From a virus, in the IMG/VR virus record IMGVR_UViG_3300046747_000117: a stretch of 64,000 bases of DNA. One strand, given 5' to 3'. The stretch's first letter is position 1; each line of letters begins with the position of its first letter. Of the stretch, positions 25,024 to 30,705 are shown one piece after another. A program made the position numbers and the translations under genes. A model generated the notes under the pieces. It did not search any database and was not told where the DNA came from. It worked only from the letters and a program-made list of their open reading frames with translations.

Positions 25024-25557
25024 ATGCCTTTCGTCAGTGGATTCCTACAGGTGCGCCACGGCGGACACCCGGACCAGGGACTGCCGGGCGAACAGCCGGG
25101 AATCGATAATTCTTTGCCCGGGATGCCCGCCTACCCGGACCAGGGGTTGCCGATGCCGCCGCCTGGCACGTTTCCGCCACCCAGCCCGGCGCATCCGATC
25201 GTCCCCGCGCCACCGTCCACGCCGCCTGGCGTGATCTGGCCACCGATCGGTCGTCCGCCGTCCTGGGGCGGGGGCTGGGGCAGCGGCAACCGGCCCGATC
25301 AGGGACTTCCTGGCAGCCAGCCGGGACCGGACAACACCCTGCCGGGTCAGCCCGCGACCCCGGACAACACGCTGCCGACGCAGCCGCCGCGCCCCGACAA
25401 CTCGTTGCCATCTCAGATGTATTGGGTGGTCTGTGGAATCCCCGGTGTCGGTTGGCGCTATGTGTGCGTCGACCCCTCGCTTCAGCCGGGAATGCCGCTG
25501 CCGCCGACGCCGGTGAACCCCGACAATACGCTGCCGCCGACCGCCGAACCTAAATGA
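25024..25557 (+). CDS. Pro-rich repeat protein (PD[Q/N]xLP repeats)
   Basis: ATG 25024 with RBS CAGGAG. Repeated PDQGLP/PDNTLP/PDNSLP units and a C-terminal YWVVCGIPGVGWRYVCVDP. Confidence 0.7.
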   Translation: MPFVSGFLQVRHGGHPDQGLPGEQPGIDNSLPGMPAYPDQGLPMPPPGTFPPPSPAHPIVPAPPSTPPGVIWPPIGRPPSWGGGWGSGNRPDQGLPGSQPGPDNTLPGQPATPDNTLPTQPPRPDNSLPSQMYWVVCGIPGVGWRYVCVDPSLQPGMPLPPTPVNPDNTLPPTAEPK

Positions 25558-25559
25558 CG

Positions 25560-25592
25560 AAAAGGGCGCGCACCCGACCTGGATGCGCGCCC
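25560..25592 (-). terminator. Intrinsic terminator closing the Cas7-like operon
   Basis: Minus strand GGGCGCGCA-loop-TGCGCGCCC followed by TTTT, immediately after array A. Confidence 0.75.
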
Positions 25593-25830
25593 ACCTCGCC
25601 TCGCCCTACCAAGCCCCGCCACGCCGGACCCCGCCTAGCCCCGCCGCGCCCTACCCCGCCCGGCCCTGCCACGCCTCACCCCGGCAAACCCGACCGCGCC
25701 TCGCCTGACCTGACCACGCCCTGCCTCGCCGCGCCTCGCCTAACCACGGCGGGCCGCGCCAAGCCACACCTTGCCTAACCGGACCGTGCCCCGCCGGGCC
25801 ACACCCCACCTCGGCGCGCCACGCCGAACC
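25591..25830 (-). repeat. Array A: 48 in-phase GGY-NN pentamers (putative guide RNA)
   Basis: Plus strand reads NN-RCC every 5 nt with no indels. 45 of 48 units are GGY and 3 are GCC. Begins 2 nt after the stop of the Cas7-like gene. Confidence 0.95.
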
Positions 25831-25832
25831 TG

Positions 25833-26450
25833 TTACGCCTCGGAAACGCTGTATTTCACGACGCTAAACCGTCCGTAGGTTGGTCGAAAATCGCCAACGC
25901 CGCCGATCCTGCCAGCGAGCGTGACGACCTCGTGCAACTGATCCTGATTGACATATTCCGGTAGCGTCACCAAAAACCTGAAGTCACAGGTCCAGCCGAC
26001 CCGCATCGCCGGGCGGATTCTGTTGATGCCAGCACGCTGAATGACAACGCGGCGCCTGTCCTCGTAATCCCAGTCCTTTGTCCCAAAAGACGCCAGCGGC
26101 GTCAGCGAAACGATCGCCGCCTTGTAGAGATCCATGGCGGACTTTCTTGGAGAGCGCGGATCTTGCCTGAACTTCGAAGCCTGGATGATCGCGCCACGCA
26201 GGTATTCCCCGGGCATGCAGATCATTCCATTTTCGTCGCGATAGACATACGACTCGACATCGTCGGTCTTTTTCGCCGCGCTGTTTTTCGCGGCTTTCCC
26301 TTTGGTCTCAACGCTTTCCGCGTTCCACCGATGGAACAGAACATCGGCTGACCCTCGGATCGAGACATTCGCGACGTACGGCAGCTCAGAGTTGATCGCC
26401 TCTTTGCCGCCATTCGTTACGTTATCTGTTATTCGTACGACCTTCGCCAT
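25833..26450 (-). CDS. Cas7/RAMP-like RNA-binding protein (Vipr-like candidate effector)
   Basis: 205 aa. CMPGEYLRGAI resembles the RAMP IPGSSLKGAL motif. C-terminal Gly-rich loop AGRIGGVGDFRPTYGRF. RBS GGGGGA. Flanked by GGY-NN arrays. Confidence 0.8.
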   Translation of the reverse strand: MAKVVRITDNVTNGGKEAINSELPYVANVSIRGSADVLFHRWNAESVETKGKAAKNSAAKKTDDVESYVYRDENGMICMPGEYLRGAIIQASKFRQDPRSPRKSAMDLYKAAIVSLTPLASFGTKDWDYEDRRRVVIQRAGINRIRPAMRVGWTCDFRFLVTLPEYVNQDQLHEVVTLAGRIGGVGDFRPTYGRFSVVKYSVSEA

Positions 26451-26464
26451 TTATTCCCCCTGTG

Positions 26465-26574
26465 AAACCACGCCCGGCCAGACCCCACCTCGCCTGACCC
26501 CGCCCAGCCTCGCCTTGCCAGACCCAAGCCCGCCCAACCGCGCCGCGCCACGGCCAACCACGCCGCGCCACACC
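26465..26574 (-). repeat. Array B: 22 in-phase GGY-NN pentamers in the leader of the Cas7-like gene
   Basis: 20 of 22 units are GGY (one GCC, one GCT). Ends 14 nt before the ATG. Confidence 0.93.
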
Positions 26575-26579
26575 GCGAG

Positions 26580-26628
26580 AGATAGCCTAGCCGTAATTTT
26601 TTGACCGGGTCAAGGGGCTAGGCTATCT
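26580..26628. promoter_or_regulatory. Inverted-repeat divergent promoter/operator
   Basis: 13-bp perfect inverted repeat AGATAGCCTAGCC...GGCTAGGCTATCT enclosing the palindrome TTGACC-G-GGTCAA. On the minus strand, TTGACC-N18-TAGGCT precedes array B. Confidence 0.65.
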
Positions 26629-26635
26629 TATGGTC

Positions 26636-26839
26636 ATGCCAAGGGTGTTAAAATATCCTGAAAGAGCGCAGTGCAATGTCGTCGCCGGCACGCTCGCGGC
26701 CCTGGAGGCGCGGTTTGAGGCCGGCGACGATCACGCGAAGCTGTTGCGACGCATCGTCAGCAATTGGATACGCGACACCCCGGCGACTAACTCCAAAGAT
26801 CGCCCGCGACGTGGCCCACCGGAATCGTCTTCGCGGTGA
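26636..26839 (+). CDS. Small ribbon-helix-helix-like regulator, divergent from the Cas7-like operon
   Basis: MPRVLKYPERAQCNV...LAALEARF...HAKLLRRIVSNWI has a beta-helix-helix layout. Alternative ATG at 26630. Confidence 0.5.
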   Translation: MPRVLKYPERAQCNVVAGTLAALEARFEAGDDHAKLLRRIVSNWIRDTPATNSKDRPRRGPPESSSR

Positions 26840-29720: not shown

Positions 29721-30006
29721 TCACGGCGCGGCGCGGTGTGGCTTGGCGTGGCATGGCATGGCTTGGCGTGGCTGGGCGTGGCTTGGTTGGCCCGGGTCAG
29801 GCTTGGCGTGATTGGGCTTGCCGGGGCGTGGTGGGGCGAGGCCCGGCGTGGCAGGGCTTGCCATGGCCAGGCTGGGCAGGGCGGGCCGGGGCGGGGCGTG
29901 GCCGGGTTCGGCGAGGCATGGCAGGGCGGGGCCTGGTCAGGCTTGGTATGGTATGGGAGGCGTTTACGCCTCGGTCCCGTCCGGCTTCCCGCCGGGCGGG
30001 GCCATA
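29721..30006 (+). ncRNA. Stand-alone guide-like RNA C: 46 GGY-NN units (29725-29954) plus 3' double hairpin
   Basis: 41 of 46 units are GGY, in phase. Tail GAGGC-N6-GCCTC then GGTCCCGTCCGG-N7-CCGGGCGGGGCC. Confidence 0.75.
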
Positions 30007-30499: not shown

Positions 30500-30705
30500 C
30501 CCGGCGCGGCCAGGCGGGGCATGGCGCGGCTTGGCGTGGTTGGGCTTGGCGGGGCATGGCGGGGCGGGGCCTGGCAGGGTCTGGCGCGGCGTGGCTTGGT
30601 TGGGCTTGCCCTGGCGTGGTTGGGCGCGGTTCGGCGTGGCTTGGCAAGGTATGGTGAGGCTCTCGTGCCTCGGCCCCGTCTGGCTTCCCCCCGGACGGGG
30701 CCATA
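30500..30705 (+). ncRNA. Stand-alone guide-like RNA D: 31 GGY-NN units (30503-30657) plus 3' double hairpin
   Basis: 30 of 31 units are GGY. Tail GAGGC-N6-GCCTC then GGCCCCGTCTGG-N7-CCGGACGGGGCC. Confidence 0.75.

What the first reader, a model, noticed from the sequence alone, without database searches (positions are those of the whole stretch)
25591..26574. Gene sandwiched by guide arrays in one transcript; NN strings decoded
Array B sits in the 5' UTR (ends 14 nt before the ATG). Array A starts 2 nt after the stop and runs into the terminator. Minus-strand NN for B: GT GC GT TG GT GC GC TG GG TG CT AA GA TG GG CA GA GG CT CG GT TT. For A: TC GT GC GA GG GT CC GG AC CC TA AA GT TT GC CC GT TA GA GC GA AG GT CA CA GA GC CG TT GG GA GT AG CG GG AG GC GG TA GG CC GT GG TT AG GA GA GG. 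Inference: protein coating array B next to the RBS could autoregulate translation, and guides must be processed from the mRNA or act in cis.
Basis: partly seen in the sequence, partly recalled or inferred. Interest (0 to 1): 0.8.

Follow-up and report, generated by a model that had tools for sequence, protein, structure and literature searches.

The report
Phage VIPR operon with fused guides
A soil phage carries a VIPR system (a CRISPR-related, RNA-guided DNA-silencing system first described in 2026) in which the small Cas7-like gene is flanked directly on both sides by its guide-repeat tracts, so this is a compact new example of a known kind, not a new system.

Summary
Array B (26574-26465, 22 pentamers, 20 GGY) ends 14 nt before the ATG. 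Array A (25830-25591, 48 pentamers, 45 GGY) starts 2 nt after the stop and runs into a terminator hairpin. Both NN strings reproduce letter for letter.

The 205-aa gene is a Vipr protein. It matches the solved SUSP1 Vipr (E 5e-7; BLASTP 1e-12) and has a Cas7/Csm3 fold. Its best AlphaFold DB matches are the seed proteins of the VIPR discovery preprint. The locus is therefore a VIPR system (bioRxiv 10.64898/2026.04.26.720920), already known. This scan has noted VIPR 115 times in at least 98 genomes.

What this work adds:
- Tight fusion of arrays to the gene recurs across the clade (138 loci surveyed).
- Strains with near-identical vipr carry swapped array alleles.
- Units 27-44 of array A decode, by the published 1-nt-skip rule, into another GGYNN array. 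That makes it a vrRNA-targeting guide, a class published in October 2026.
- No significant target was found for array B or for A units 1-26.

Co-transcription is well supported by geometry, but no RNA data exist. Translational autoregulation through array B is plausible and untested, at about 0.3.

The parts
26584..26613 (-). Promoter-like site for the operon: TTGACC (26613-26608), 17-18 nt spacer, then a CTAGGCT -10-like box inside GGCTAGGCTA (26592-26583)
   Evidence: Read from sequence. The GGCTAGGCTA box occurs six times in the window against 0.98 expected, only before arrays B, C and D and the divergent partner of B. The leader is conserved in sibling strains even where the array behind it is replaced. 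The consensus scanner did not call it on this strand, because its -10 box is too far from TATAAT.
26465..26574 (-). Array B: 22 GGYNN units in the 5' UTR of vipr, with no hairpin tail
   Evidence: It is replaced wholesale between strains with near-identical vipr, in three alleles of 22, 28 and 41 units. The first 6 units and the junction to the ribosome binding site stay constant.
26455..26461 (-). Shine-Dalgarno AGGGGGA, 3 nt after the last array unit and 4 nt before the ATG
   Evidence: Read from sequence. The junction TTTCACAGGGGGAATAAATG is constant in siblings.
25833..26450 (-). vipr gene, 205 aa (Cas7-like RAMP protein that coats GGY/NN RNA)
   Evidence: phmmer hit to PDB 36pp_D 'SUSP1 Vipr protein', E 5e-7. 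BLASTP to SUSP1 Vipr, E 1e-12, 26% identity. AF2 model with pLDDT 84.5. Foldseek hits Csm3/Cas7 at E 1e-6. AFDB top hit is X1U2U4, E 2e-15, TM 0.74/0.85. More than 7400 homologues, none named.
25591..25830 (-). Array A: 48 GGYNN units in the 3' UTR, starting 2 nt after the stop
   Evidence: Units 1-27 are constant in siblings. The distal part carries a 3-unit indel or is replaced by a longer tract of 76 units.
25611..25700 (-). Units 27-44 of array A: a guide that decodes, by the 1-nt-skip rule, to a sense-strand GGYNN array of about 11 units (vrRNA-targeting guide)
   Evidence: All 22 of 22 constrained positions fit the expected 5-unit cycle GY-NG-YN-GG-NN. The best of 2000 unit shuffles scores 14. 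Among 194 distinct arrays, only the alleles of this array show the signature; the next best scores 9.
25554..25592 (-). Intrinsic-terminator-like hairpin plus T tract; probably also the 3' cap of array A
   Evidence: The stem is conserved and the loop varies in sibling L086.
26601..26839 (+). Divergent promoter-like site (TTGACC-17-TATCTT, 26601-26629) and a 69-aa ORF (26630-26839) of unknown family. It may be a regulator; it is not shown to belong to the system.
   Evidence: Pfam finds nothing. A 65-69-aa gene is called at this place in some sibling contigs.

Best explanation
This is a VIPR (Viral Interference Programmable Repeat) operon of an uncultivated soil or rhizosphere phage.

Proposed mechanism:
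1. One promoter just upstream of array B drives a single RNA: array B (22 units), a 14-nt ribosome binding site, the vipr ORF, 2 nt, array A (48 units) and the terminator hairpin.
2. The Vipr protein made from this RNA polymerises along the GGY/NN tracts, one protomer per pentamer. It buries each GGY and exposes each NN, as in the SUSP1 cryo-EM structures.
3. The coated tracts become guide ribonucleoproteins. They bind double-stranded DNA that matches the NN letters with one skipped base per unit, and they silence it.
4. The guides most likely end up as separate particles after host RNases remove the unprotected coding part (inferred).
5. Array A is composite. Units 27-44 are aimed at the vrRNA array DNA of a rival VIPR phage. 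Targets of units 1-26 and of array B are unknown.
6. Because B ends 3 nt from the Shine-Dalgarno sequence, a full filament on B may also damp vipr translation (inferred, about 0.3).

Shown here: sequence anatomy, homology, fold, residue conservation, array allele turnover and the decoded periodic signature.
Taken from the literature: filament formation, the skip rule and silencing.
Inferred: the single transcript, maturation from the mRNA and autoregulation.
For: Protein:
- Direct sequence hit to the solved SUSP1 Vipr and BLASTP E 1e-12.
- The published GGY-contact residues are kept and are invariant or nearly so in the clade: H17>H40, E71>E82, R138>R146, D177>D187, W178>F188, R179>R189.
- Cas7/Csm3 fold.
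- The best AFDB cluster hits are X1U2U4, A0A661D0E2, A0A0F9A1L0 and A0A1F4YLN4, with A0A2D6XG06 at rank 12. These are exactly the five seed proteins of the discovery preprint.

RNA genes:
- Phase-perfect GGY/NN arrays, the published vrRNA grammar.

Guide-like evolution:
- Nine sibling contigs differ from the window at 5-8 of 618 vipr nucleotides.
- They carry three B alleles and three A alleles in five combinations, changed by whole units.
- Modules are shared between upstream and downstream arrays of different phages.

One transcription unit:
- Promoter box only upstream of B, gaps of 14 and 2 nt, and a single good terminator after A.
- In 138 non-redundant clade loci, an array starts within 10 nt of the stop in 42 of 133.
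- An array ends within 40 nt of the start in 40 of 129.
- Both hold in 19 of 124.

Skip rule:
- It works in this phage group. Guide C units 31-43 match a sibling-specific small ORF at 24 of 26 letters, scoring 20 against a shuffled maximum of 13.

Anti-array guide:
-. vrRNA-targeting vrRNAs are published.
- No self-target reaches 80% NN match; the best is 27 of 36, as in the papers.
Against: - There are no RNA data for this phage, so transcript ends, processing and guide boundaries are unknown.
- The arrays are much longer than the published 9-16 repeats.
- Array B has no structured 3' tail, which every characterised vrRNA has, so B might not be a working guide.
- No vap accessory gene was recognised.
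- No target above shuffled background was found for B or for A units 1-26.
- No exact target was found for A units 27-44 in IMG/VR or JGI metagenome contigs.
- The best partial match, two vrRNA 3' ends in L015, matches 30 of 36 letters but only 10 of 14 variable letters. Among 395 in-phase placements that is expected by chance about 0.4 times.
- An internal promoter inside the vipr coding region cannot be excluded.
Confidence: 0.85

Rival explanations
1. Array B is mainly a cis-acting translational operator or protein sink, not a guide. Vipr coats the 5' UTR as its concentration rises, the filament end reaches the Shine-Dalgarno sequence 3 nt away, and initiation is blocked. The NN letters of B would then carry no target information. 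This overlaps with the best explanation; B could do both.
For: - B ends 14 nt from the ATG and 3 nt from the Shine-Dalgarno sequence.
- That distance stays at 13-16 nt in all four sibling alleles although the array itself is replaced.
- 40 of 129 clade loci have an array ending within 40 nt of the start, and almost none ends closer than 13 nt.
- B has no tail hairpin, and no target was found for it.
- In the SUSP1 structure each GGY is held by two neighbouring protomers, so the footprint should extend past the last unit (inference).
Against: - About 38% of clade loci have no upstream array within 400 nt, and in others the gap is 44-307 nt, so this cannot be a general need of the family.
- B's alleles differ by whole blocks that are shared with downstream arrays of other phages, as expected for guide modules.
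- The published SUSP1 constructs express the upstream vrRNA1 together with vipr, and that vrRNA works as a guide.
- Tight spacing may only reflect phage genome compaction.
Confidence: 0.25
2. The arrays are transcribed separately from the gene. Under this reading array A has a promoter inside the 3' part of the vipr ORF, or the vipr mRNA starts inside or after B, so the 'sandwich' is only tight packing of independent genes.
For: Arrays C and D in the same window are stand-alone genes with their own promoter box and tails, so this phage does express arrays on their own. No RNA evidence is available either way.
Against: - The GGCTAGGCTA box is absent from the ORF and from the 2-nt gap.
- No promoter-like site was found on the minus strand between 26450 and 25830.
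- The array sequence itself (GGYNN) offers no AT-rich -10 element.
- Arrays begin 0-10 nt after the stop codon in 42 of 133 relatives from many phyla, which fits read-through transcription better than many independently placed internal promoters.
Confidence: 0.1
3. The repeats are not guide RNAs at all. They would act as DNA- or RNA-level structural elements (two-tier G-quadruplexes from GG runs spaced by 3 nt, R-loop-prone G-rich transcripts, or iterons for a DNA-binding protein). The protein would then be an unrelated RRM-fold protein.
For: GG every 5 nt on the transcribed strand is formally compatible with two-tier G-quadruplexes (from the sequence alone). Rfam has no family for the arrays.
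Against: - The protein is a clear Vipr homologue with the GGY-binding residues intact.
- The repeat grammar is exactly that of vrRNAs.
- Position 3 is restricted to pyrimidines and positions 4-5 are hypervariable. A quadruplex or an iteron does not require this.
- One segment decodes into a meaningful target class under the published rule.
Confidence: 0.02

Closest known systems
Type II VIPR system of Escherichia phage SUSP1 and the Pseudomonas fulva prophage (bioRxiv 10.64898/2026.04.26.720920; structures in 10.64898/2026.04.26.720927)
   Same: - Small Cas7-like Vipr protein with the same G-loop (GVGD-aromatic-RP..GRF) and thumb arginine.
- GGY/NN pentamer RNA genes on both sides of vipr; SUSP1 has one upstream and three downstream.
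- Phage-borne, with hypervariable NN letters.
- No self-targeting.
   Different: - Only 26% protein identity.
- Arrays of 22 and 48 contiguous units, against 9-16 per vrRNA.
- No pseudoknot tail between guides: B has no tail and A ends in a plain terminator hairpin.
- The arrays touch the ORF (14 nt and 2 nt). In SUSP1 the gaps are about 95-110 nt upstream and about 500 nt downstream, beyond vap1.
- No vap1 homologue.
- I could not assign one of the seven published types, because the type tables are not held.
vrRNA-targeting vrRNAs of SUSP1-family phages (bioRxiv 10.64898/2026.10.15.759431)
   Same: - A guide whose decoded target is another phage's GGYNN array.
- Self-match is lower than the match to foreign arrays: 27 of 36 against 30 of 36.
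- The best foreign match lies at the junction of repeats and 3' hairpin, as described there.
   Different: - Here the guide is an internal 18-unit segment of a long array in the 3' UTR of vipr, not a solo vrRNA.
- The actual rival target was not found, and the foreign match is not significant on its own.
Class 1 CRISPR backbone proteins Cas7/Csm3 (types III-A and VII)
   Same: RRM-core RAMP fold. The top Foldseek PDB hits are Csm3 and type VII Cas7 chains, E about 1e-6, TM about 0.5. These proteins also bind guide RNA periodically as a helical filament (established knowledge, restated).
   Different: - No CRISPR repeat-spacer array in the window.
- No other cas genes seen near the locus (Pfam).
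- Period of 5 nt, not 6.
- The guide is non-contiguous.
Translational operators bound by the gene's own product, for example TRAP on the trp leader or phage coat-protein and RegA operators (from general knowledge, not tested here)
   Same: As a functional analogy for the autoregulation idea only: an RNA-binding protein that recognises short repeats next to a ribosome binding site and blocks initiation.
   Different: There is no homology. Here the bound RNA would also be the guide, and the effect on translation is not shown.

Membership tests
VIPR system (Vipr + vrRNA) | Protein homologous to characterised Vipr | tested here: met
   PDB 36pp_D SUSP1 Vipr, E 5e-7. BLASTP E 1e-12 over residues 26-197. 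tblastn hits 115 Felixounavirus/Suspvirus-type phages at the vipr position.
VIPR system (Vipr + vrRNA) | RAMP fold with RRM core, glycine-rich loop and thumb | tested here: met
   AF2 model with pLDDT 84.5. Csm3/Cas7 top hits in PDB. AFDB top hit is X1U2U4, TM 0.74/0.85, followed by the other published seeds. The G-loop G184-V-G-D187-F188-R189-P is invariant or nearly so. The thumb region (about 122-147) is modelled with lower confidence, but R146-P147 align to SUSP1 R138-P139.
VIPR system (Vipr + vrRNA) | Residues that hold G1, G2 and Y3 of each repeat | tested here: met
   H40, E82, R146, D187, F188 (for W) and R189 align to H17, E71, R138, D177, W178 and R179. K33 aligns to A53, with K52 and K55 beside it.
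VIPR system (Vipr + vrRNA) | Tandem GGY/NN pentamers next to vipr on the same strand | tested here: met
   Arrays A and B. 118 of 124 clade loci have an array within 400 nt.
VIPR system (Vipr + vrRNA) | NN positions hypervariable between close relatives while GGY is kept | tested here: met
   Sibling contigs with 5-8 of 618 vipr nucleotide differences carry different array alleles that keep the GGY frame.
VIPR system (Vipr + vrRNA) | 9-16 repeats followed by an invariable structured 3' tail | tested here: not met
   A has 48 units and ends in a terminator hairpin. B has 22 units and no tail. The discovery paper allows other array architectures, such as staggered arrays, so this speaks against type II membership rather than VIPR membership.
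VIPR system (Vipr + vrRNA) | Accessory vap gene in the operon | tested here: not met
   No ORF lies between vipr and A. There is no homologue of SUSP1 vap1 or of the DSL-LC04 downstream gene in the window. The divergent 69-aa ORF has no Pfam match. The paper names six vap genes for seven types, so I infer that one type may lack vap.
VIPR system (Vipr + vrRNA) | Natural targets found by the 1-nt-skip rule | tested here: inconclusive
   A units 27-44 decode to a GGYNN array, P below 1/2000, but no exact target was found. B and A units 1-26 gave nothing above shuffles. Guide C gives a clear sibling hit.
VIPR system (Vipr + vrRNA) | Vipr-vrRNA filament formation and DNA silencing | not testable with these tools
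   This needs pull-down, EMSA and reporter assays.
VIPR system (Vipr + vrRNA) | Borne by a virus or provirus | tested here: met
   Syntenic sibling contigs carry ERF, Sipho_Gp157, SLT and a Laminin_G_3 fibre. 100 relatives lie in IMG/VR, two of them on contigs with terminal repeats.
CRISPR-Cas class 1 (type III / VII) | CRISPR repeat-spacer array and further cas genes beside the Cas7-like gene | tested here: not met
   No 25-40-nt repeat arrays in the window. The neighbours are a beta-helix protein, PEP-CTERM proteins and tail genes. PADLOC finds nothing for the protein.

The most novel reading that the evidence does not exclude
In this clade the vipr mRNA is its own guide precursor and its own regulator.
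- Vipr loads in cis, as it is made, onto tail-less arrays fused to both ends of its ORF.
- Filament growth on the 5' array up to the Shine-Dalgarno sequence shuts off further translation.
- Host RNases then trim the naked ORF away, releasing long multi-guide filaments (22-146 units) that need neither a dedicated processing enzyme nor tails.

That would be a biogenesis and dosage-control route not described for VIPR or CRISPR.
Probability: 0.25. Interest if true: 0.55.

Novelty: new member of a known kind. Interest (0 to 1): 0.35.

Why it matters
VIPR was published only in 2026, and its biogenesis and regulation are not covered in the texts I could read. The terms biogenesis, maturation, RNase and autoregulation do not occur in them.

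This clade is very large, with more than 7400 proteins, and spans many bacterial phyla. It shows the most compact layout so far:
- guides fused to both ends of the ORF;
- no tail between guides;
- no accessory gene;
- arrays of up to 146 units.

That makes it a convenient natural case for asking three questions:
- How are vrRNAs cut out of an mRNA?
- How long can a working filament be?
- Does coating of the 5' UTR set the protein dose?

The anti-array guide and the reshuffling of array alleles among near-identical phages add field evidence for VIPR-against-VIPR conflict in soil. None of this changes the kind of system.

Tried and rejected
1. RNA evidence: no RNA holder was listed for the locus. 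All 24 holders are soil or rhizosphere DNA runs, so I did not lay reads.

2. No whole genome is held for the window, so no host-genome target search was possible. The host remains unknown.

3. Exact gapped-pattern scans all returned 0 hits:
   - A units 27-44, in viral and metagenome contigs.
   - A units 27-40, in metagenome contigs.
   - A units 31-44, in viral contigs.
   - Tiles A1-10, A9-18, A17-26, B1-11 and B12-22, in viral contigs.
   - Exact tiling is insensitive, because one mismatch or a badly placed tile boundary loses a true target.

4. Mismatch-tolerant scans covered the window, 160 related loci and three whole relative phage genomes, against shuffled guides. They gave nothing for B or A1-26.

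5. GCC units as guide delimiters every 13 units: across 66 long arrays the spacing of GCC units shows only a small bump at 13 and no periodicity. I rejected this as a rule.

6. Shine-Dalgarno sequence in phase with the array as a pseudo-unit: this is true in the window but out of phase by 1-2 nt in sibling alleles. I take it as coincidence.

7. The 5' UTR fold has z = -3.2, but the minimum-energy structure has a frequency below 1% and no clear sequestering hairpin. I did not use it.

8. Rfam gives no family for the arrays. Pfam and PADLOC give none for the protein. PHROG 4652 matches but has unknown function.

9. L015 as the real target of A27-44: I rejected it as proof, because about 0.4 such matches are expected by chance.

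10. The complex-prediction job was not used. Filament formation depends on RNA, and the tool takes proteins only.
Full report
**What is there**

On the minus strand the region reads, 5' to 3':
- a promoter-like site: TTGACC at 26613-26608, a 17-18 nt spacer, then a CTAGGCT box inside GGCTAGGCTA at 26592-26583;
- about ten bases of leader;
- array B, 26574-26465;
- 14 nt containing AGGGGGA;
- an ATG-started ORF of 205 codons, 26450-25833;
- 2 nt;
- array A, 25830-25591;
- a hairpin of 12 pairs followed by TTTT, 25592-25554.

Array A has 48 pentamers without a single indel, 45 of them GGY. Array B has 22 pentamers, 20 of them GGY. With GGY at 5.7% of positions on this strand, the binomial P values are 2e-52 and 3e-23.

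Position 1 is always G and position 3 always a pyrimidine. Positions 4 and 5 carry 1.6-2.0 bits. Two more arrays of the same kind, each with the same GGCTAGGCTA box and a 3' double hairpin, lie at 29725-29954 and 30503-30662.

**What it is**

A literature search found the answer at once. VIPR systems were described in 2026 preprints. They consist of a small Cas7-like Vipr protein and vrRNAs made of alternating GGY and NN.

The published mechanism is as follows:
- Vipr polymerises on the RNA, one protomer per pentamer.
- It hides each GGY and exposes each NN.
- The complex binds double-stranded DNA that matches the NN letters with one skipped base per unit.
- Binding silences transcription.

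I tested membership rather than assuming it.

- Sequence. The 205-aa protein hits the solved 'SUSP1 Vipr protein' (PDB 36pp) at E 5e-7. It aligns to the SUSP1 gene product over residues 26-197 at E 1e-12 with 26% identity.
- Contact residues. The residues that hold the repeat in the cryo-EM structure are conserved and invariant or nearly so in this clade: H17>H40, E71>E82, R138>R146, D177>D187, W178>F188, R179>R189. K33 aligns to A53, which sits beside K52 and K55.
- Fold. An AlphaFold2 model (pLDDT 84.5) finds Csm3/Cas7 chains of type III-A and type VII complexes in the PDB at E about 1e-6.
- Seeds. In AlphaFold DB clusters the first four hits are X1U2U4 (E 2e-15, TM 0.74/0.85), A0A661D0E2, A0A0F9A1L0 and A0A1F4YLN4, with A0A2D6XG06 at rank 12. 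These are exactly the five seed proteins named in the discovery paper.
- Libraries. Pfam and PADLOC have no model for the protein. PHROG 4652, of unknown function, matches.
- Spread. The family is huge, with more than 7400 proteins at E below 1e-3, none named. It is found in viral contigs and in genomes of many phyla at 41-74% identity.

**Is the 'sandwich' special?**

In SUSP1 one vrRNA lies upstream and three lie downstream of vipr-vap1. They are separated from the genes by a tail and about 100-500 nt. Here the arrays touch the ORF.

I surveyed 138 non-redundant loci of this clade:

| Feature | Loci |
|---|---|
| Array begins within 10 nt of the stop codon | 42 of 133 |
| Array begins within 40 nt of the stop codon | 73 of 133 |
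| Array ends within 40 nt of the start codon | 40 of 129 |
| Both flanks tight | 19 of 124 |
| No array within 400 nt | 6 of 124 |

Almost no upstream array ends closer than 13 nt to the start codon. Arrays reach 142-146 units. The fused layout is therefore a recurrent property of the clade, not an oddity of this phage.

**One transcript?**

Four points support it:
- The GGCTAGGCTA box occurs only before B, before its divergent partner, and before arrays C and D.
- No promoter-like site lies on this strand between the ATG and array A, and the only good terminator follows A.
- The 14-nt and 2-nt gaps leave no room for other signals.
- The same abutment recurs across phyla.

I rate a single primary transcript at about 0.8. 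No RNA data could be found. The published SUSP1 effector plasmids place vrRNA1 and vipr behind one inducible promoter and still yield loaded vrRNA of about 100 nt. Maturation out of a vipr-containing RNA is therefore at least possible. None of the three preprints discusses biogenesis or autoregulation.

**Guide-like behaviour**

Nine sibling contigs differ from the window at only 5-8 of 618 vipr nucleotides, giving one amino-acid change. Their arrays differ far more:
- B comes in three alleles of 22, 28 and 41 units. They share only the leader, the first 6 units and the junction to the ribosome binding site.
- A keeps units 1-27. After that it shows a 3-unit indel or a wholly different, longer distal half of 76 units.
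- The alleles occur in five combinations.
- All changes are in multiples of 5 nt.
- Blocks are shared between upstream and downstream arrays of different phages.

This is what is expected of an exchangeable guide repertoire.

**Decoding**

I wrote an ungapped scorer for the published rule (NN, one free base, NN, and so on) and compared real guides with unit-shuffled guides.

- Positive control. Guide C units 31-43 match a small ORF found only in sibling L086 at 24 of 26 letters, scoring 20 against a shuffled maximum of 13.
- Array A. The only hits above background were other phages' vrRNA arrays.
- The reason. Units 27-44 (25700-25611) follow a perfect five-unit cycle, GY-NG-YN-GG-NN. That is exactly what a guide must look like if its target is itself a sense-strand GGYNN array of about 11 units.
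- Significance. All 22 constrained letters fit. The best of 2000 shuffles scores 14. Among 194 distinct arrays (5124 units) from all fetched loci, only the three alleles of this array show the signature, scoring 22, 16 and 15. The next best array scores 9.
- Allele differences. Between the window and L086 alleles, the three NN differences inside units 32-38 all fall on letters that decode the rival's variable positions. This is weak support, roughly P 0.05.
- Prior art. vrRNA-targeting vrRNAs, with footprints at the repeat-tail junction and lower self-match, were published in October 2026. This is therefore another example, not a new class.
- The concrete rival was not found. Exact searches gave nothing. 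The best partial match is two vrRNA 3' ends just upstream of vipr in L015. It matches 30 of 36 letters but 10 of 14 variable letters, which is expected about 0.4 times among 395 in-phase placements.
- Self-match. The phage's own arrays score at most 27 of 36, below the 80% used in the papers.
- For B and for A units 1-26 nothing exceeded shuffles.

**Autoregulation**

The idea is reasonable:
- B's last unit ends 3 nt before the Shine-Dalgarno sequence.
- The distance to the ATG stays at 13-16 nt in four different B alleles.
- Each GGY is held by two neighbouring protomers, so the filament end should reach the ribosome binding site (inference).

Against it:
- About 38% of clade loci lack an upstream array within 400 nt, and others have gaps of 44-307 nt.
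- The phase between array and Shine-Dalgarno sequence is not kept.
- Compaction alone explains tight spacing.

I put autoregulation at about 0.3.

**Differences from the characterised type II systems**
- Long contiguous arrays.
- No pseudoknot tail; B has none at all.
- No vap gene.
- Direct fusion to the ORF.

The discovery paper mentions other architectures, including staggered arrays, and seven types. The type tables are not held, so I cannot assign a type.

**Verdict**

The reading as guide arrays around their coating protein is right. The system is already known, and this scan has met it 115 times in at least 98 genomes. What is worth keeping for VIPR specialists:
- the clade-wide fused, tail-less, vap-less layout;
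- strain-level reassortment of array alleles;
- the internal anti-array guide;
- the open question of biogenesis and dose control.

Noticed in passing
window 29875-29939 (array C units 31-43) versus L086:6525-6562: Guide C decodes to the first dozen codons of a 63-aa ORF that exists in sibling contig L086 but not in the window. It matches 24 of 26 letters, scoring 20 against a shuffled maximum of 13. I used it only as a positive control for the skip rule.
   Followed up: partly
window 30578-30632 (array D units 16-26) versus L083:5751-5782: Guide D has a borderline hit in the 87%-identity sibling L083, scoring 16 against a shuffled maximum of 14.
   Followed up: no
window 25781-25810 (array A units 5-10): The NN letters GG GT CC GG AC CC form a gapped palindrome: the decoded 17-nt target equals its own reverse complement. 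Such a guide could read both strands of one site. By my rough estimate the chance is about 0.01 per array.
   Followed up: no
L002:6001-6618 (Phage DSL-LC04, OR003939.1): The Vipr homologue (60% identity) of this cultured-lake phage is annotated in GenBank as 'helix-turn-helix transcriptional regulator'. Three GGYNN arrays of 20, 11 and 10 units lie in its 5' intergenic region, and a 147-aa gene overlaps its stop codon and may be a vap.
   Followed up: partly
L083:10738-11467: A 146-unit array (730 nt) was called as a 249-aa protein gene by the source's gene caller. Arrays of this clade are likely to sit in protein databases as spurious Gly/Arg/Ala-rich ORFs. The window's own ORF list shows the same effect at 25554-25778 and 26302-26604.
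   Followed up: no
L092-L167 (genome-contig loci): This Vipr clade is 41-74% identical across Planctomycetota, Proteobacteria, Actinobacteria, Firmicutes, Cyanobacteria, Acidobacteriota, Patescibacteria and one Bathyarchaeia MAG. That is unusually high conservation for a phage protein spread so widely.
   Followed up: no
66 arrays of 20 or more units in the window and loci L002-L091: Off-consensus units are not random: GCC 102, GCT 53, GAC 37 and GAT 22 out of 2757 units. G1 and Y3 are therefore kept more strictly than G2. The spacing of GCC units has no clear period.
   Followed up: partly
window 26583-26625: Two GGCTAGGCTA boxes face outward around TTGACC-G-GGTCAA. One drives array B. The other lies before a possibly leaderless 69-aa ORF (26630-26839) of no known family. 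It might be a regulator of the locus or the missing accessory gene.
   Followed up: partly
alleles of arrays B and D in L083-L091: The promoter-proximal 6-8 units of an array are conserved between alleles while everything further along is replaced. They may serve as a 5' handle or nucleation site, or they may simply be linked to the promoter.
   Followed up: no
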